From NCBI RefSeq assembly GCF_009914755.1, contig NC_060927.1: a DNA stretch of 64,000 nt; one strand, 5' to 3'. This document shows, one piece after another, positions 5,320-64,000 of the stretch; position 1 is the stretch's first letter; each line of letters starts with the position of its first letter. Origin of the DNA: the human T2T-CHM13v2.0 reference genome, Homo sapiens. Made by a program: the position numbers and the translations under genes. The notes beneath the pieces are model-generated. The model did no database searches. It was given only the letters and a program-made list of their open reading frames with translations, and was not told the DNA's origin.

Positions 5320-7050
5320 GTCTCTAGGGCTCTACTCATTTTTCTTCATTCTTGTTTCTTTCTATTCTTCAGACTAGATAATTTCAATTGGCCTATCTTG
5401 AAGTTTGCCAATTCTTTCTTCTACTAGCTCAAATCTACTGTCGAGCCCTCTTGTGAAATTTTCATTTCAGTTATAGTATATTTCAACTCCAGAATTTTTG
5501 TACATGTTTTTAAAAAATAATTTCTATCTCTTTATTGAAACTCTTTTTTTAACATATAAAATTTTAATTTGCTAATTATTTTACAATAAAAATATAATAA
5601 TCCCACTTTTTTAAATTATACTTTCAGTTCTGGGGTACATGTGTAGAATGTGCAGGTTTGTTACATAGGTATACACTTGCCATGGTGGTTCTTTATTGGG
5701 TGAAATATTCTCATACATTCCTCCAGTTCTTTACCTATAGTTCCCTTTAGTTTTTTGAACATATTCAAAATAGCTGCTATCAATATTTTTCTGGTAACTC
5801 CAGTGTTTAACTCCAAGGCTTTCCCAGGGACAGTTTCTACTGTGTTTTCTCCCTGCCCTGTACAAGGGCCATAATTTCTTGTTTCTTGCATTTCTTGCGA
5901 TGCTTTGTTGAAATCTAGACCTTTAAATAATATAACGTATTCACCCTCCAGGGTGGTAGAGTTGCTGTTTGTTGCTGCTGCTGATTGCTGTTTGTTTCTT
6001 TAGAGACTTTCTAGAACTACTTTTGTAAAATTGTTATTTTTGTTGTATGAACTTTTTGTCGTATGTAGCCACTGAAGTTTAAATGCCTCAAAGCAATAAA
6101 CCTCCCAGATTTCACCAAGGAGCTAGTTTGTGTGTTGTGGTATACCTTAAGTGAACTGCTTGGCAGTTTAAAATTCTCCTTTAGCCTTTACTTCCTGCTT
6201 GCACAGAACTTCAAGGTTAGTCAAAGAAGAGAAATCAGAGATTTCTTAGGTCTTTCTTGGGCATACATACAGCTCTGCTCATGTGTGCAGCCTTCTAAAT
6301 TTCTCAGATTATTTTAGAAAGTTTTCAAAGCCCCTCTATGGCTTTTTTAGTTCCCAGTGTTTTCTTTCTTTCTTTCTTTCTTTTTAATTCCTTTCCAACT
6401 TTTATTTTAGGCTCAGCCTCTTGCTTCCTTTTCAGCTGTTTGGTCAGCTTGTTGTTGGTTCCAACTGTTATCACCACCTCAGGCAGCTTCAACGTTAAAA
6501 AAAAAAAAAAAGCCATGTAAATATGTACAAATGTTATGTACCAATAGAAAAACACAAAATTTCCAATGATTGTTTTCACAAATGCCTCAGGGAGAAAGCC
6601 ATTCACAGTGAGTCAGTTCTGATCAGGTTAAATAAAAACAAGCCATGCAAGTGGGGATTTGCAGAAAACAGCCAGATAGATCCCGTAATGACAATTCCCT
6701 GGGGATGGGCTTTTTAGGGAAGCTTTACATTCTTCTGCTGTCTCCAGTGACTGCTTGGCAACTGGTTTTCATGATGACTAACATCATGAAACTGTTGGTT
6801 TTCAAGGCCACTGCAGAGCTGGGGAGAAGCGGGTGGGAGTACACAGCAAGTGAAATGTCACGTTTATTGCTCCTTCTGCAATTCAGTCACTCTTCAGTAA
6901 ATATTCCTCACATTATTCCAAGCCTTTACTTTATTTCCAAAGTTCTGAAGAAGTTGAGTGATCATTTTTTTAACCAGTGTTATTTTTATGCACAAGAGGC
7001 TTTCAGATTTCCTTATTTTGCTGTTTCTAGGGGTGTCATCACTTACTAAT
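5320..7050 (-). mobile_element. Old L1M 5'/ORF1-region fragment, interrupted by a younger L1PA piece
   Basis: ttcagactagataatttcaattggcctatcttgaagtt...ttcaactccagaattt is typical antisense L1M ORF1 sequence; boundaries approximate. Confidence 0.65.
5544..5690 (-). mobile_element. Heavily 5'-truncated L1PA 3' end (5607-5690) with a putative 56-bp 3' transduction
   Basis: ttatactttcagttctggggtacatgtgtagaatgtgcaggtttgttacataggtatacac is the antisense L1PA 3' terminus; second T-tract at 5544-5550. Confidence 0.8.
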
Positions 7051-20853: not shown

Positions 20854-21509
20854 TTTATCAAGACTATTCTTTCAGGGATCATTTTTATGCTTTGTACTAG
20901 AAGTTTCTCTGAAAGTGTAGAGCACCATCAACTATGGGAAAGGGGCACAGCATTGTCTCCTAAGCATGAAGCCAGCTCTCTGTGTTGTGTTGCTGCAACT
21001 GACACTTGGTATTGATGATCATTCTTTCCCTCCCTCAAAAGAATAAGAGGGGAGGATGAAGTCTGAGAGGTAATTATTTAAAATAACTAATTAATTTAAT
21101 ATAATGCAGTTTATCAGGCAACAATATGTAGAGATTAAAATGCACGTTTGTTTCTATCATCTATAGAAGATACATCTTCCACAGTTTTTTACAGAAGGCT
21201 GTCATTTCTCTAAGGATTCACAATCAATATTCTTTGGTTTATACAGTGTATACATCCAGTAATCAGATACATTACTTGACATGTTTTTAAATGTTAACTT
21301 TCTTTGACATTTTAATATTTTAATCAGGAATTTCATTTCCCTAGATAAGATAGCTTTCATTATGAAATTGTGCTTTTTCAGTTCATTTGAAGGTGGCATT
21401 GTGTCTGAACTTTAGGAACAATGACTGAAGATAAAGATGTTAAAAAAACATCAAGATACAACAGAATATCATATAAAATTTTTATTAAGTTAAATGACAT
21501 TAAATGAGA

Positions 21510-59732: not shown

Positions 59733-61762
59733 ATCCGTTATCTGATGGCCAAGAGAAGCATATTGCACTCTGTAACCTGACTAGATTATTATTCTCAACC
59801 ATGTGCTGCCACAGAAAACAGAAAAAAGTTTAGGCTTGCAGAAGCGAAAGACTGATCCATGATGTATTTAAGAAGTAAGTAGCCCTACTACATTAATAGA
59901 ATTCTAATATACCTCATCCAGGCTTATATGGAACTTGTAACAACAGTATATTCAAGAGAATTTAACTCAAGATATATAAATTGATTGAATGCTGAACTCT
60001 ACTGCAGTTATTAGGACTAATTTCCCCCTTCTGAATCTTACACTGACATTTACACCATTTTAATAAGAACCCATTATGAGTCTCATTTTAGGGGAAGGGA
60101 TTCTATTAAGTGAAAGTAACCACATATGTATCCAAGCAAATGCCAAGTAGAACAAGAAACAGATTTTAAATGAAGTTAAAATTCATAACAGTAAAGAATG
60201 ATGGTAATACCTCATATTTGTCTAATTCTTTTTTTTAACAAAACACTTTCAAATACCCTGTCTCTTTAGTTTTCATAAAACCCTTTGTTAAAGAAAGATA
60301 TTTATCTGGAGTTCAGGCCTAACATCCTATGGATTTCTATTGCTGTTTGACAGTAGAATCTTATAAGTTGGGATATTATCAAGGCAACTTTTAAGAATAA
60401 ACCATGAGAATTGAATTAGTCATTTTTAAATGTTCTAGAAAAGTCAGTTGGCATTGGCACTAAAGAACATTACATTCCTACAATTCTTTTCCTTTTAGAA
60501 AACACGACTAATTTGCATGACAGGCCAGGTGGTCCATTTGCATAGATAAGACCAAAGAAAATGTGTGCTACACTCTGGAAGGTTGAGGGACACAGGAGGG
60601 AAAGGAATAATACAGAGTGTGCCTTTTATTTTTAATCTTTTATTTGCTAGCTCAGGCAAAGTCTAAATGGATCAGTGAGGTCCACAAATCACTTTGTTCA
60701 TTTTTTCTAACACCTGACATCTTTCAAATAAAAAAGATCATATTTATATTTTAGATATACTTAACAAAGTAAACAATAACAGAACAAAATAATAGAAAAA
60801 TACTATAGAAAAAATAGTTGAATTTAGAAGTATAAGTGTTTTAACTAATCAGAATTTTTTCTTGATTCTATTATACTTACTTTATTCTTCCATTTAAAAC
60901 ATACTATAAATCAGATTTATACCAGTTGCAGAAATAATACTTATTGTTTGCATAAAAAATTGATGGCAATGAATAGGAAAATACTTCAAGCTTCTTATAA
61001 TAAAGCTGATACAATTGTTCCACCTTCCTAAAATGGACCCTAGGAAATGATAAGACAAAATGTAATATAAACTGCAATCAAAATTGAAAAATGTAAACTG
61101 TAATAGCTATTCACAAAGCATACATTTATATACTATATAAAAAACAACAAAAACCTAAATTACAAAAAATAAGCAATGAGGCAGAACTTTGGAAAGAATT
61201 CAAAATAAAACAATTATTTAGAAATGAAGACTAAACTTAAAAAGAATACAAGAGAAATGAACATAATAAGTAATGCCTTATTTTAAGTAGAAGGTCAAAA
61301 GAAATGAATAGAGATAAATAGGATTAACAGAAAGTGATGATTCAGTAAGATAGAGAAGATAGAGAAGATTCAAGGAACAAATAATAGGAAATCCTGAAGA
61401 AAACAAACCAAGGATATAAGACAAATACTAAAGACTGAGTTCTAAGAAAAATTTTCAGAAACTTTAAAGATAAATTTGAAATTACATACCTCATATGTAC
61501 ATACTGAACATACCTTTTACCTGAGACACCAAGACATATTCTAGGAAAATTACTAGACTTTAAAGAAAAAGAAAAAAGTCTTTGGATATTAAGGTAAAAT
61601 GAACAAAGGAAAGAAATTCTGGTTCTTTTCAGACTTTTTGGTGCAATGCTTTATGCCAGAAGAAAGGAAGTACCGTATTTATGCTACTCAATGAAAGAAA
61701 ATTTGAACTGAGGATTGTATATTCAACAAAATTGACTTTCAAACATAAATGTATCCATTCTC

Positions 61763-62113
61763 TGTCAGGCCTGTGAGCCCAAGCTAAGCCATCATATCCC
61801 CTGTGACCTGCACGTACACATCCAGATGGCCGGTTCCTGCCTTAACTGATGACATTATCTTGTGAAATTCCTTCTCCTGGCTCAAAAGCTCCCCAACTGA
61901 GCACATTGTGACCCCCACTCCTGCCCGCCACAGAACAACCTCCTTTGACTGTAATTTTCCTTTACCTACCCAAATCTTATAAAACGGCCCCACCCCTATC
62001 TCCCTTTGCTGACTCTCTTTTTGGACTCAGCCTGCCTGCACCCAGGTGAAATAAACAGCCCTGTTGCTCACACAAAGCCTGCTTGGTGGTCTCTTCACAT
62101 GGACGCGAGTGAA
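61763..62113 (+). mobile_element. LTR7 (HERV-H LTR), complete U3-R-U5, short variant
   Basis: tgtcaggcctgtgagcccaagctaagccatc...TATAAAA 61978-61984, AATAAA 62050-62055, ends gcgagtgaa; preceded by TSD TTCTC at 61758-61762. Confidence 0.96.
61978..62010 (+). promoter_or_regulatory. LTR7 core promoter: TATA box, GC/GT box and predicted cap site G62008
   Basis: TATAAAA at 61978, ggccccacccc downstream, and GC dinucleotide 30 nt from the TATA start; TSS inferred from spacing only. Confidence 0.6.
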
Positions 62114-63460
62114 CGCTATCTGATTTGGATAAAGAAAAAGGAGCATTAACCTTGACTATGCCTTTAGCTTCAGCCACCTTTTTAAGAGGAAATTGCTGGG
62201 CAAGTGGGGGAGGGCTAGTCATGGAACAAAACTGTAAGTGGTACCAGGTGGAGGAACGGAGGTTGAGGAAGAATTGGGACCTAGCTTGGCCTGGCGAGGA
62301 GGGGAGAGGTCAGATGGGTCTGTAGAGAAGGAAGATTAGAAAGACTCAGTGATGCTTGGGGTTGGGACTGAGGGGACAGGCAGGAGGGAAAGAAGGAAGA
62401 TTTGGGATGAATCGCATTGGGAACAGAAAGTAGGGAGGGACTGATGTGTAAAAGAATGCCTGGAGGTCAGGCACCTCAGACCACTTGCCCATTTTACGAC
62501 AAGAATTATTTAGATCTTGTAGGATGGAAGAATTGAAAGTGCCATTTTCTGGCTATTTGGAACCACTGTCGAGTTTGTATTGTGGTCAAGTGGCATTGCA
62601 GAAGAACATAGGCATTTAGGTTTTAGGTCAGGTATGAGTTGAAGAGATTTTAGGTTTTTAAGAACGCAGGCTAAGGGAGAAGAAGGGGGAATGGAGGGCG
62701 GAAGCTTGCCCATAGTGAAGGAGGCAAGCCCAGAGAAAAGAGAGAGTAAAGACAAGGAGAGAAGGGGTGGGGGGTTCTTGCCCCCCAGAAAAGCAGAGAA
62801 GGGGTCTGGGCATGGAAATAAGGGGGTAGGGCGCAGAGATAAGAGGTTGGGGCACAGAAATAAGGGATCGGGGCACAGAGATAAGAGGTTGGGGTGTGGA
62901 AATAAGGGATCGGGGGATTCTTGCCCCCCAGAAAAGCAGAGAAGGGGTAGAGATAGGGAGAGAAGGTGTTGGGGTTCTTGCTCCTCCCCCAGAAAAGCAG
63001 GACGTGCCCCTAAGGGTGAAAGACCAAGGCAGGCGTCCCTGCGTGGTCAGACACCTCTGAAATGTGGGTGAATAATCAGAGAGGTGTCCCTGCAATGATT
63101 AAACACCAAAGGAAGGCTGCCTTCCTGAGTCCATGACCAGCGCCGGAGTTTTGGGTCCACGGATAAAACGTGTCTCCTTTGTCTCTACTAGAAAATGAAA
63201 GGAATTGAAATTAAGAGAAGGGAGAGATTGAAGTGTGGCGCCAAGATTGAAAGGAGAAAGTGGTTGAGGGATAGTGAGAGAGGTTGCAGAAGAGAGTAAG
63301 AAGAGGCCGCTTACCTGATTTAAAATTGGTGAGATGTTCCTTGGGCTGGTGGGTCTGAGGACCTGAGGTGGTAGTTGGATCTTTCTCATGGAGCAAAATG
63401 CAGGAGGATAGGGGATTGATCTCCCAAGGGAGGTCCCCCTATCCGAGTCACGGCACCAAA
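62114..63460 (-). mobile_element. HERV-H internal leader/gag segment, inverted relative to the flanking LTR ends
   Basis: Minus strand starts tttggtgccgtgactcggatagggggacctcccttgggagatcaatcccc; major splice donor aatcag|gtaagc at ~63309-63317; leader tandem repeats at 62760-63000. Confidence 0.95.
63441..63458 (-). other. Primer binding site for tRNA-His
   Basis: TGGTGCCGTGACTCGGAT, an 18/18 complement of the tRNA-His 3' end. Confidence 0.95.
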
Positions 63461-63650
63461 TTTCACCCGTGCCCCTGTAAAGAGACCACCAAACAGGCTT
63501 TGTGTGAGCAACAAGGCTGTTTATTTCACCTGGGTGCAGGCGGGCTGACTCTCTTTTCGGACTCAGCCCACCTGCGCCCAGGTGAAATAAACAGCCTTGT
63601 TGCTCACACAAAGCCTGTTTGGTGGTATCTTTACATGGACGTGAGTGAAA
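63461..63650. repeat. LTR7 R-U5 palindrome: 88-bp arms (63461-63548 minus, 63563-63650 plus) and a 14-nt loop
   Basis: 80/88 arm identity with a 50-bp perfect core; the ORF track gives the same peptides (CEQQGCLFHLGAGGL and PGEINSLVAHTKPVWW) on both strands; followed by TSD TTCTC at 63651-63655. Confidence 0.97.
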
Positions 63651-64000
63651 TTCTCAAAATGCAGAAATTTAAGGAACAATGTTTCTTTGAGCTCCTTCTG
63701 AGGAATCTACTAATGAACAGCTTCAGTCAACGAAAATAATTAGAGACACTGACTGGTGGTGAACATTATACACTCACATGTAGACTTAAGAGTAGCTAGT
63801 GGTTAAAAGAGATGAAGTATAATACATAACAGCTACATGCTCTGACAATGTAGACATAGTATGACTATTAGAAATAGAAAATGAGGACCATGAATACAAC
63901 AAAAATATTTAACTGTTTTCAGTCAGTATATTGGTGGTGTTAGTATTGTTATTCTAAGCAGTTAAAATATAAAGTGGTGGATGAAACAACTGAATAATTC

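What the first reader, a model, noticed from the sequence alone, without database searches (positions are those of the whole stretch)
61758..63655. Fold-back HERV-H provirus: probable integrated fossil of minus-strand strong-stop DNA self-priming
Seen: between two TTCTC target-site copies lie a full LTR7(+) (61763-62113), 1347 bp of gag/leader in reverse, a reverse tRNA-His PBS, reverse U5-R (63461-63548) and then R-U5(+) to 63650. R-U5 therefore occurs three times and U3 once; pol, env and the PPT are absent. Both breakpoints sit on reverse-transcription landmarks. The left junction is at the U5 end (gtgaa|cgctatc). The right junction is the 5-bp inverted repeat GCTGA...TCAGC, whose G corresponds to 62008, exactly 30 nt after the TATA start and so the predicted 5' end of R. 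The three R-U5 copies are equally diverged (8 differences in each pairwise comparison over 87-88 nt). Established: minus-strand strong-stop DNA runs from the U5 end to the 5' end of R, and its hairpin self-priming is a known dead-end side reaction of retroviral RT in vitro that nucleocapsid suppresses; HERV-H integration makes 5-bp TSDs. Inference: read 5'->3', the bottom strand is strong-stop DNA whose 3' TCAGC snapped back on GCTGA, copied U5 and the PBS, extended into leader/gag, then jumped onto a full LTR. That gives a molecule with two valid att ends, which was integrated and inherited.
Basis: partly seen in the sequence, partly recalled or inferred. Interest (0 to 1): 0.9.

Follow-up and report, generated by a model that had tools for sequence, protein, structure and literature searches.

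The report
Fold-back HERV-H provirus, reverse-transcription fossil
This rearranged ancient retrovirus copy, with part of its end repeated back-to-front, looks like a preserved mistake of the viral copying enzyme made before the DNA entered our ancestors' genome, and two more such copies exist elsewhere in the same genome.

Summary
It reads TTCTC, LTR7(+), inverted gag-leader-PBS-U5-R, R-U5(+), TTCTC. The three R-U5 copies differ by 8 of 87 positions in every pair. Paralogues of the flanking old repeat run straight across the site, so it is one clean insertion.

The inversion axis is a 24-nt hairpin at the predicted start of R. The hairpin starts 30 nt after the TATA start. [quoted passage not shown]

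Searching the same T2T genome found two more loci, on chr1 at 53.3 Mb and chr2 at 157.8 Mb. They share the fold-back at GCTGA/TCAGC but have different flanks and different internal layouts. In both, an inverted U5 end sits directly against a 5-bp target-site duplication, so the fold-back existed before integration. The chr2 copy stops within 3 nt of the end of the 18-nt PBS, which is the expected end of a self-primed product.

I read the window element as an integrated product of aberrant reverse transcription (about 0.8). Cis self-priming and the same pairing in trans cannot be told apart. The chr1 loop orientation and clustered arm differences in the window do not fit the simplest version. 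No orthologue, population or TSS-mapping data could be checked.

The parts
61758..61762 (.). Left copy of the 5-bp target-site duplication, TTCTC.
   Evidence: The sequence is shown. In paralogues of the flanking old repeat the two flanks are contiguous, and one paralogue shows a single TTGTC at the site.
61763..62113 (+). LTR7-type LTR with U3, R and U5. It starts TGTCAGG. TATAAAA is at 61978-61984, the predicted R start G is at 62008, and AATAAA is at 62050-62055. It ends GTGAA, one A short of the normal GAAA end.
   Evidence: It aligns to both LTRs of provirus L060 at 86-91% identity and lacks L060 338-430. The U5 ends of normal copies are shown.
62112..62114 (.). Left junction, where the U5 end joins inverted gag. 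The bases AA at 62112-62113 are shared by the LTR end and the inverted gag sequence (2-nt microhomology).
   Evidence: Side-by-side comparison with the reverse complement of L060 2175-2225.
62114..63440 (-). Leader and 5' part of gag in reverse orientation, equivalent to L060 725-2202. It contains the family's 21-bp tandem repeats.
   Evidence: BLAST gives 86-89% identity to L060 on the minus strand. Repeat family D1 is reported.
63441..63460 (-). Reverse-oriented tRNA-His primer-binding site (18 nt, 63441-63458) plus the 2-nt spacer (63459-63460).
   Evidence: It is an exact reverse complement of the PBS primer printed in PMC3253121. It is also an exact match of the 20-mer pattern (row C3:90149441).
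63461..63548 (-). Reverse-oriented U5-R (copy B). It runs from the U5 end to R position about +20 and is linked to the PBS.
   Evidence: It differs from copy A by 8 of 87 positions and from copy C by 8 of 87.
63544..63567 (+). Fold-back axis: GCTGA (63544-63548), a 14-nt loop in + orientation (63549-63562), and TCAGC (63563-63567). This is the 24-nt hairpin at the start of R.
   Evidence: As DNA (strong-stop sense) it folds at -4.5 kcal/mol, z -4.0, with 0 of 200 shuffles as good. As RNA it folds at -7.3 kcal/mol, z -3.0.
63544..63650 (+). Terminal R-U5 (copy C) with no U3. It is complete from the predicted R start to the normal GAAA end, with AATAAA at 63586-63591.
63651..63655 (.). Right copy of the target-site duplication, TTCTC.
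   Evidence: Normal proviruses of the family show 5-bp duplications: L077 is 5 of 5 and L060 is 4 of 5.

Best explanation
The element is an integrated product of aberrant reverse transcription. It is not a provirus rearranged in the chromosome.

Proposed mechanism:
1. A minus-strand DNA reached the 5' end of R. Its last 24 nt form a hairpin whose terminal TCAGC pairs with GCTGA 14 nt upstream.
2. Reverse transcriptase extended that 3' end. It used either the same strand (self-priming of strong-stop DNA) or a second minus strand carrying the same site.
3. This made plus-sense R-U5 and the PBS, and synthesis then ran on into leader and gag.
4. A further microhomology jump (AA) joined this strand to the very end of a U5-terminated LTR strand.
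5. The finished DNA had a U3 end on one side and a U5 end on the other. Integrase inserted it with the family's usual 5-bp duplication, and it was inherited.

Shown here: the anatomy, the single clean insertion, the recurrence of the same axis at three loci, and inverted U5 ends that abut the TSDs at the other two loci.

Inferred: the order of strand switches, cis versus trans priming, and the exact 5' end of R.
For: **Anatomy and insertion.** The anatomy and TSD are. The flanks are contiguous in paralogues L079 and L080, so this is one insertion.

**Position of the axis.** The axis lies 30 nt after the TATA start. Spacings of 30-31 bp are the commonest in mammalian TATA promoters (PMC1779604, passages). 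A published HERV-H 'R region' primer is the reverse complement of R +4 to +24 (PMC3253121, methods passage).

**Hairpin prediction.** In all 4 strong-stop-length sequences folded, and in the isolated 24-mer, the 3' terminal 24 nt form a blunt hairpin with the last base paired.

**Recurrence.**
- The junction 22-mer with up to 3 mismatches gave 19 matches. Only the window and chr1:53,315,110 are palindromes, with 74 and 50 of 80 ungapped arm matches against 31-38 for the other 17.
- Among the 46 exact rows of the looser pattern, only 3 loci match on both strands.
- The inverted poly(A)-signal pair patterns hit only these loci at the spacing expected for an axis at the start of R. They gave no ERV hit at shorter or longer spacings.

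**The other two loci.**
- chr1: TSD GTGAT/GTGAT, with an inverted U5 end abutting the left copy.
- chr2: TSD GTAAA/GTAAT, laid out the same way. Its PBS-linked arm ends within 3 nt of the end of the 18-nt PBS (GGA microhomology) before an unrelated inverted pol segment.

**Age of the copies.** The three R-U5 copies in the window differ equally (8 of 87 each). That equals the difference between the two LTRs of ordinary provirus L060 over the same columns (8 of 87), so the duplication looks about as old as a typical insertion.

**Literature.**
- Self-priming of strong-stop DNA at a 3' hairpin is an established in vitro reaction (review PMC6088434, section 5.1 passages).
- RT can switch templates on 2-nt complementarity (PMC4668388, discussion passage).
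- An integrase complex holds two U5 ends in vitro (PMC3623958, passages).
Against: - The window's own termini are the normal U3 and U5 ends. Its TSD therefore does not by itself exclude an internal rearrangement after integration. The pre-integration argument rests on the other two loci and on the landmark positions.
- Of the 8 differences between palindrome arms B and C, 5 lie in the last 18 nt of U5. Arm B there carries a variant (ACAGGG) also seen in other HERV-H copies. This fits poorly with one arm being a straight copy of the other over its whole length.
- The chr1 locus has the loop colinear with the PBS-linked arm. Cis self-priming of short strong-stop DNA followed by PBS transfer does not predict that.
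- In chr2 the fold-back arms differ by about 24% from that element's own LTRs. Two quite different RNAs must have been involved.
- The 5' end of R was not mapped.
- The review states that self-primed products were not detected in endogenous HIV-1 reactions, so such events should be rare.
- Only about 1 of roughly 770 PBS-His sites shows the fold-back (948 matches against 180 for the reversed control).
Confidence: 0.8

Rival explanations
1. Same stage, opposite direction. A long minus strand was copying a second genomic RNA through gag, leader, PBS and U5. It stalled at the base of the RNA hairpin (about R +20). Its 3' GCTGA annealed to the terminal TCAGC of a free strong-stop DNA and copied that DNA to its 5' end. 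Read along the top strand, every switch then leaves a template at or near a template end.
For: - It explains why arm B (linked to the PBS) and arm C differ most at the U5 end.
- It explains why copy C stops exactly at the U5 end.
- The left junction also reads as a run-off at the U5 end followed by a landing in gag on a 2-nt AA match.
- The RNA hairpin is predicted at -7.3 kcal/mol.
- The chr1 topology needs some non-cis route.
Against: - It needs read-through of the PBS on an RNA whose 5' end is still intact, as well as a second free strong-stop DNA.
- The chr2 arm stops within 3 nt of the end of the 18-nt PBS. That is more simply the end of a cis self-primed product.
- No data here separate the two directions.
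Confidence: 0.3
2. A normal two-LTR provirus integrated and was later rearranged in the chromosome by replication-based template switching (FoSTeS/MMBIR) or fold-back repair. That event deleted pol, env and the 3' U3 and made an inverted duplication.
For: - The window's termini and TSD are those of an ordinary provirus.
- Both junctions show short microhomology, AA and GCTGA/TCAGC, as such events do.
- A short inverted repeat could favour fold-back in DNA replication too.
Against: - Both breakpoints would have to fall on reverse-transcription landmarks, within 1-3 nt of the U5 end and at the start of R.
- The same axis recurs at two other loci where the inverted U5 end lies exactly on the host border next to the TSD. 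A chromosomal event would not be expected to hit that border.
- No inverted R-U5 pair with another axis was found at shorter or longer spacings.
- The inverted copy is no closer to its supposed source LTR than the two direct copies are to each other (8 of 87 each).
Confidence: 0.1
3. Two or more separate insertions (nested or adjacent HERV-H fragments in opposite orientation) that only look like one unit.
For: HERV-H copies are numerous. The PBS pattern gave 948 matches against 180 for its reversed control. In chr2 the fold-back arms come from a different lineage than the rest of the element.
Against: - The outer ends are flanked by one TSD, and the flanks are contiguous in paralogues.
- No internal TSDs flank any sub-part.
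- The inner junctions are virus-to-virus at landmark positions.
- The same architecture recurs three times.
Confidence: 0.03
4. Assembly artefact of the T2T assembly (a chimeric or fold-back read).
For: The region is pericentromeric, and palindromes can arise from library artefacts.
Against: - The arms differ at 8 of 87 positions, whereas an artefact would give identical arms.
- The structure has a TSD and clean flanks.
- Two similar loci lie in unrelated regions.
Confidence: 0.02

Closest known systems
TAR-dependent self-priming of HIV-1 minus-strand strong-stop DNA in vitro. The source is Guo et al. 1997, seen only as described in review PMC6088434 section 5.1 and as cited in PMC4668388.
   Same: A hairpin at the 3' end of strong-stop DNA primes copying of the same strand and gives an inverted R-U5. 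The product is regarded as a dead end for first strand transfer.
   Different: Here the product is an inherited chromosomal insertion, not a test-tube product. The hairpin is 24 nt, far smaller than TAR. Synthesis continued past the PBS into leader and gag, and the molecule acquired two usable ends and was integrated. The review reports that no such products were detected in endogenous HIV-1 reactions.
HIV-1 proviruses with asymmetric LTRs or inversions in treated patients (PMC9278108, passages).
   Same: These are defective proviruses made during reverse transcription. Some have a 3' LTR lacking U3 and part of R (8 of 26 asymmetric proviruses), and a few have internal inversions (2 proviruses).
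   Different: The passages I read describe no palindromic R-U5 with its axis at the start of R. Those proviruses are somatic and recent, whereas this one is germline and old.
Moloney MLV provirus with LTRs in inverted orientation, integrated through two U3 ends.
   Same: Integrase can use two ends of the same kind. The chr1 and chr2 loci used two U5 ends.
   Different: Those ends were U3, and no strong-stop fold-back was involved. The window element itself has one U3 end and one U5 end.
Replication-based inverted duplications in chromosomes (FoSTeS/MMBIR, fold-back priming). This comparison rests on established knowledge; I read no paper on it here.
   Same: Template switches on 2-5 nt of microhomology give an inverted duplication.
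   Different: Breakpoints of such events are not tied to retroviral landmarks or to the LTR/host border.
L1 twin priming. This comparison rests on established knowledge; I read no paper on it here.
   Same: An inversion is created during reverse transcription before or at insertion, and it is bounded by a normal TSD.
   Different: That mechanism is target-primed on chromosomal DNA by a non-LTR element. It involves no LTR, PBS or integrase.

Membership tests
Self-primed minus-strand strong-stop DNA product | The inversion axis lies at the 5' end of R, which is the 3' end of strong-stop DNA. | tested here: inconclusive
   The axis starts 30 nt after the TATA start, with T at -1 and G at +1. A 30-31 bp spacing is typical (PMC1779604). 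The sequence is treated as R in PMC3253121. No mapped 5' ends were available.
Self-primed minus-strand strong-stop DNA product | The 3' end of strong-stop DNA can form a hairpin with its terminal base paired. | tested here: met
   The blunt 24-nt hairpin appears in 4 of 4 strong-stop-length folds and in the isolated 24-mer. It folds at -4.5 kcal/mol with z -4.0.
Self-primed minus-strand strong-stop DNA product | One arm begins exactly at the U5 end, next to the tRNA primer. | tested here: met
   The terminal arm ends at the normal GAAA end in the window. It ends at the CA end abutting the TSD in the chr1 and chr2 loci.
Self-primed minus-strand strong-stop DNA product | The copied arm runs through U5 into the 18-nt PBS, which is a copy of the tRNA primer. 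| tested here: met
   In the window the full 18-nt PBS follows arm B. In chr2 the arm ends within the last 3 nt of the 18-nt PBS.
Self-primed minus-strand strong-stop DNA product | The loop is colinear with the primer-proximal (terminal) arm. | tested here: met
   This holds in the window and in chr2. It does not hold in chr1, where the loop is colinear with the PBS-linked arm.
Self-primed minus-strand strong-stop DNA product | The two arms were identical when formed. | tested here: inconclusive
   The arms differ at 8 of 87 positions, the same as for the direct copies. However, 5 of the 8 fall in the last 18 nt of U5.
Integrase-mediated HERV-H insertion | A 5-bp target-site duplication flanks LTR termini of the TGTCAGG...GAAA type. 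| tested here: met
   The window has TTCTC on both sides. Normal copies: L077 is 5 of 5 and L060 is 4 of 5. An empty-site equivalent is seen in paralogues.
HERV-H (LTR7, tRNA-His PBS) | Sequence similarity to HERV-H LTRs and internal sequence, and a PBS complementary to tRNA-His. | tested here: met
   Identity to provirus L060 is 86-94%. The PBS equals the PBS-tRNA-His primer of PMC3253121. No Dfam or Repbase library was available, so the subfamily name is not tested.
Post-integration FoSTeS/MMBIR rearrangement | An ancestral or allelic normal provirus exists at the same TSD. | not testable with these tools
   No other primate genome or human haplotype was available.

The most novel reading that the evidence does not exclude
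HERV-H and its close relatives left a small class of 'fold-back' insertions. These would be natural records of a reaction known only from test tubes. In this reading, strong-stop DNA primes on its own 24-nt terminal hairpin and ends in a PBS. It therefore stands in for plus-strand strong-stop DNA, is rescued by a second-transfer-like step, and is integrated. In two of the three cases integration used two U5 ends. If so, genomes hold a readable archive of failed strand transfers. The frequency of such fossils per family would report how well each ancient virus's nucleocapsid suppressed self-priming, including in particles that packaged two different RNAs.
Probability: 0.5. Interest if true: 0.8.

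Novelty: new variant of a known kind. Interest (0 to 1): 0.7.

Why it matters
Self-priming of strong-stop DNA is a textbook in vitro side reaction that nucleocapsid protein is thought to suppress. The review I read says it was not seen in endogenous HIV-1 reactions.

Three independent germline insertions share a fold-back at the same hairpin. They would show that the reaction happened in real infections or retrotranspositions. They would also show that its product need not be a dead end, and that integrase accepted DNAs with two U5 ends.

The finding gives a sequence signature that can be searched in any genome: an inverted R-U5 pair with its axis at the start of R, with one arm on the host border and the other on the PBS. 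It also places the start of R in HERV-H independently of expression data.

It has no evident bearing on host gene function. No gene lies within 100 kb.

Tried and rejected
1. **A 5'-LTR-specific U5 variant.** I asked whether the U5-end variant of arm B (ACAGGG) is specific to 5' LTRs, which would have implied a systematic asymmetric route for LTR formation. The idea arose because L060 and L077 carry it only in the 5' LTR. I rejected it. By my hand count of the listed rows, 30 of the 94 variant ends are followed by a PBS. About 38 of the first 100 listed ends with C or T at that site are followed by a PBS (986 matches in all, 886 unlisted). Several proviruses carry the variant in both LTRs.

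2. **More fold-back loci.**
- The 22-mer junction pattern gave 19 matches, of which 17 are not palindromes.
- The looser pattern gave 211 matches, mostly LTRs that naturally have a 7-bp stem. Only 100 rows were listed, so both-strand pairs with one mismatch beyond chr4 could not be checked.
- Two listed one-mismatch pairs (chr2:199,731,294 and chr3:48,683,038) I judged from the printed strings alone to be a normal LTR and an unrelated short palindrome.
- BLAST-type searches score only 40 of more than 2,000 candidates.
- The count of three loci is therefore a lower bound.

3. **Autointegration as the source of the left junction.** I set this aside. The LTR lacks its last A and the junction sits in a microhomology, which fits a polymerase switch or end joining better than strand transfer by integrase.

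4. **The chr1 deletion junction next to the polypurine tract as another landmark.** It shows a GAAGG-like microhomology and may be a chance landing.

6. **Sjottem et al. 1996** on the HERV-H promoter is not held.

7. **Literature searches** for integrated or endogenous fossils of self-priming found none. The library lacks most older subscription-journal virology.


Full report
**What is there**

Between two copies of TTCTC (61758-61762 and 63651-63655) the window holds the following, in order:
- an LTR in + orientation (61763-62113);
- 1327 bp of HERV-H leader and gag in reverse (62114-63440);
- a reverse 18-nt PBS plus two bases (63441-63460);
- a reverse U5-R (63461-63548);
- a forward R-U5 without U3 (63544-63650).

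The repeat finder reports the corresponding inverted and direct pairs at 90-92% identity.

I used a typical provirus from the same genome as a yardstick. This is L060, with LTRs at 272-704 and 5588-6019. The inverted part equals L060 614-2202. The LTR aligns to both L060 LTRs but lacks about 93 bp of U3. The PBS is the exact reverse complement of the PBS-tRNA-His primer printed in PMC3253121 (methods passage).

**One insertion, not several**

The flanks are an old repeat, about 70% identical to its other copies. In two of the three paralogues fetched (L079, L080) the left and right flanks of the window align to adjoining positions. L079 shows a single TTGTC where the window has TTCTC, the insert, and TTCTC again. 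The third paralogue (L081) aligned only the left flank.

Ordinary proviruses of the family show 5-bp duplications and LTRs ending GAAA. L077 is 5 of 5 and L060 is 4 of 5. The right end of the window element is therefore a normal integrated U5 end, and the left end is a normal U3 end.

**The two inner junctions**

*Right junction.* This is the pair GCTGA (63544-63548) and TCAGC (63563-63567) around a 14-nt loop.
- The G of GCTGA in the intact LTR (62008) lies 30 nt after the start of TATAAAA (61978), with T at -1.
- In mouse promoters the commonest TATA-to-start spacings are 30 and 31 bp (PMC1779604, passages).
- PMC3253121 uses the reverse complement of R +4 to +24 as its 'R region' primer.
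- Folded as DNA in the sense of strong-stop DNA, the last 24 nt form a blunt hairpin with the terminal base paired. It folds at -4.5 kcal/mol, z -4.0, with 0 of 200 shuffles as good. The same hairpin appears in all 4 strong-stop-length sequences folded.
- As RNA the hairpin is -7.3 kcal/mol.

*Left junction.* This is gtgaa|cgctatc. The LTR lacks its final A, and AA is shared with the inverted gag sequence. The junction therefore lies 1-3 nt from the processed U5 end, in a microhomology.

**Recurrence**

A search of the whole T2T genome with the palindrome found a second fold-back on chr2 at 157.79 Mb. The 22-nt junction pattern found a third on chr1 at 53.315 Mb.

The other 17 matches of the 22-mer are not palindromes. 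A looser pattern matched 211 places. Most are LTRs that naturally have GGGCTGA...TCAGCCC. Of its 46 exact rows, only the three loci match on both strands.

I also searched for inverted pairs of the poly(A)-signal region.
- At 40-70 nt spacing, the AATAAA-type pattern found only the window and chr2.
- At 40-70 nt spacing, the ATTAAA-type pattern found only chr1.
- At 10-40 nt the only hit was an unrelated AT-rich palindrome.
- At 70-100 nt there was no hit.

These searches need exact 10-11-mers or at most 3 mismatches. The similarity searches score 40 of more than 2,000 candidates. Three is therefore a lower bound.

For scale, the PBS-His 20-mer with up to 3 mismatches has 948 matches against 180 for its reversed control.

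**The other two loci**

*chr1 (L058).* It reads GTGAT | inverted U5-R | R-U5-PBS-leader-gag to L060 position 2843 | polypurine tract and LTR(+) | GTGAT.

*chr2 (L059).* It reads GTAAA | inverted U5-R | R-U5 and an 18-nt PBS | inverted pol-gag-leader-PBS-U5-R-U3 (to about U3 +36) | env(+) and LTR(+) | GTAAT.

Points about both loci:
- The left terminus is an inverted U5 end (TGTCA...) lying directly on the duplicated host bases. Both termini are therefore U5 ends.
- Their PBS differs from the His type. I recall it as the tRNA-Phe type of HERV-F-like relatives, but no tool here named the family.
- In chr2 the PBS-linked arm ends within the last 3 nt of the PBS (GGA shared with the next segment). 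That is where a strand copying the tRNA primer should stop.
- In chr2 the fold-back arms differ from each other by 8 of 86 positions but from the element's LTRs by about 24%. Two different RNAs contributed.
- In chr1 the arms share features absent from the 3' LTR.

**Interpretation**

A chromosomal rearrangement could leave the window's outer ends and TSD untouched. The window alone therefore does not decide the question.

The other two loci do. Replacing U3 by an inverted U5-R that ends exactly at the host border, twice, is not what replication-based rearrangement would give. It is what integration of an already folded-back DNA gives.

Every well-defined inner breakpoint also lies on a reverse-transcription landmark: the start of R at three loci, the U5 end in the window, and the end of the PBS in chr2. 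I therefore place the event at reverse transcription (about 0.8).

Strong-stop DNA snaps back, copies U5 and the PBS, continues on a second minus strand, then jumps to an LTR. In both loci the loop is colinear with the terminal arm.

Self-priming of strong-stop DNA at a 3' hairpin is established in vitro and is regarded as a dead end. It was not detected in endogenous HIV-1 reactions (review PMC6088434, section 5.1 passages). RT can switch on 2-nt matches (PMC4668388, discussion passage). An integrase complex binds two U5 duplexes (PMC3623958, passages).

**What does not fit the simplest version**

- In the window, 5 of the 8 differences between arms B and C lie in the last 18 nt of U5. Arm B there carries ACAGGG, a variant found in 94 other U5 ends. 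This suggests that the end of arm B came from another template, or that it mutated in a cluster.
- chr1 has the opposite loop orientation.

Both points are accommodated if the same 5-nt pairing can act between two minus strands (a short strong-stop DNA and a long read-through strand), with either one serving as primer. I cannot separate these variants.

I tested and rejected the idea that the ACAGGG variant marks 5' LTRs in general. By my hand count of the listed rows, 30 of 94 variant ends are PBS-linked, against about 38 of the first 100 ends with C or T.

**Comparison with what is known**

The nearest described natural cases I could read are HIV-1 proviruses with asymmetric LTRs (26 of 88) and rare inversions (2) in patients. 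These are attributed to template switching during reverse transcription (PMC9278108, passages). No palindromic R-U5 was described in those passages.

Seven full-text searches found no report of integrated or endogenous products of strong-stop self-priming. The library lacks most older subscription virology. I recall, but did not see, a report of an MLV provirus integrated through two U3 ends.

**Limits**

- No other primate genome, human haplotype, Dfam library or 5'-end data were available.
- Family and subfamily names beyond 'HERV-H with tRNA-His PBS' are untested.
- Age was not estimated beyond noting that the copies are as diverged as the LTRs of an ordinary provirus over the same columns (8 of 87 in L060).

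Noticed in passing
Own-genome rows (for example chr1:183,229,406, chr3:51,564,215, chr4:72,010,891): Many LTRs of at least one other family naturally carry GGGCTGA, 14 nt, TCAGCCC at what looks like the equivalent place. The stem is 7 bp and the loop differs (GGCCTAAAATGGCG type). A terminal hairpin at the start of R may be conserved across related ERV families. If so, those families could also leave fold-back fossils.
   Followed up: no
L060 (chr18:73,545,800-73,555,799) and L077 (chrX or contig C23:12,521,200-12,528,199): In these two ordinary proviruses the last ~15 nt of U5 differ between the 5' and 3' LTR at 3-4 positions. The difference includes a C/T versus G site, more than the rest of the LTR would suggest. 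The family-wide test showed no general 5'/3' asymmetry. These two proviruses may be recombinants.
   Followed up: partly
window 62734-63000: There are 21-bp tandem repeats (6 copies in register) and 143-bp-spaced repeats in the inverted leader/gag region. They give multiple overlapping BLAST hits to L060 1155-1519 and look like a normal feature of the family's internal sequence.
   Followed up: no
window 61520-61762 and 63651-63850: The insertion site lies inside an old interspersed repeat, about 66-73% identical to copies on many chromosomes. I did not name the family.
   Followed up: partly
L059 2717-4023 (chr2:157,796,616-157,797,922): The chr2 element keeps an env segment in + orientation. 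It has an open frame of 105 codons carrying a transmembrane-subunit-like CX6CC region. It is joined directly to an inverted, 5'-truncated U3.
   Followed up: partly
chr1:79,941,698-79,941,753 (L064): A 56-nt AT-rich near-perfect palindrome unrelated to ERVs was hit by chance with the inverted poly(A)-signal pattern.
   Followed up: no
window 20860-21071: The hub's annotation lists a U3 snoRNA copy here (LOC124906381). I did not examine it.
   Followed up: no
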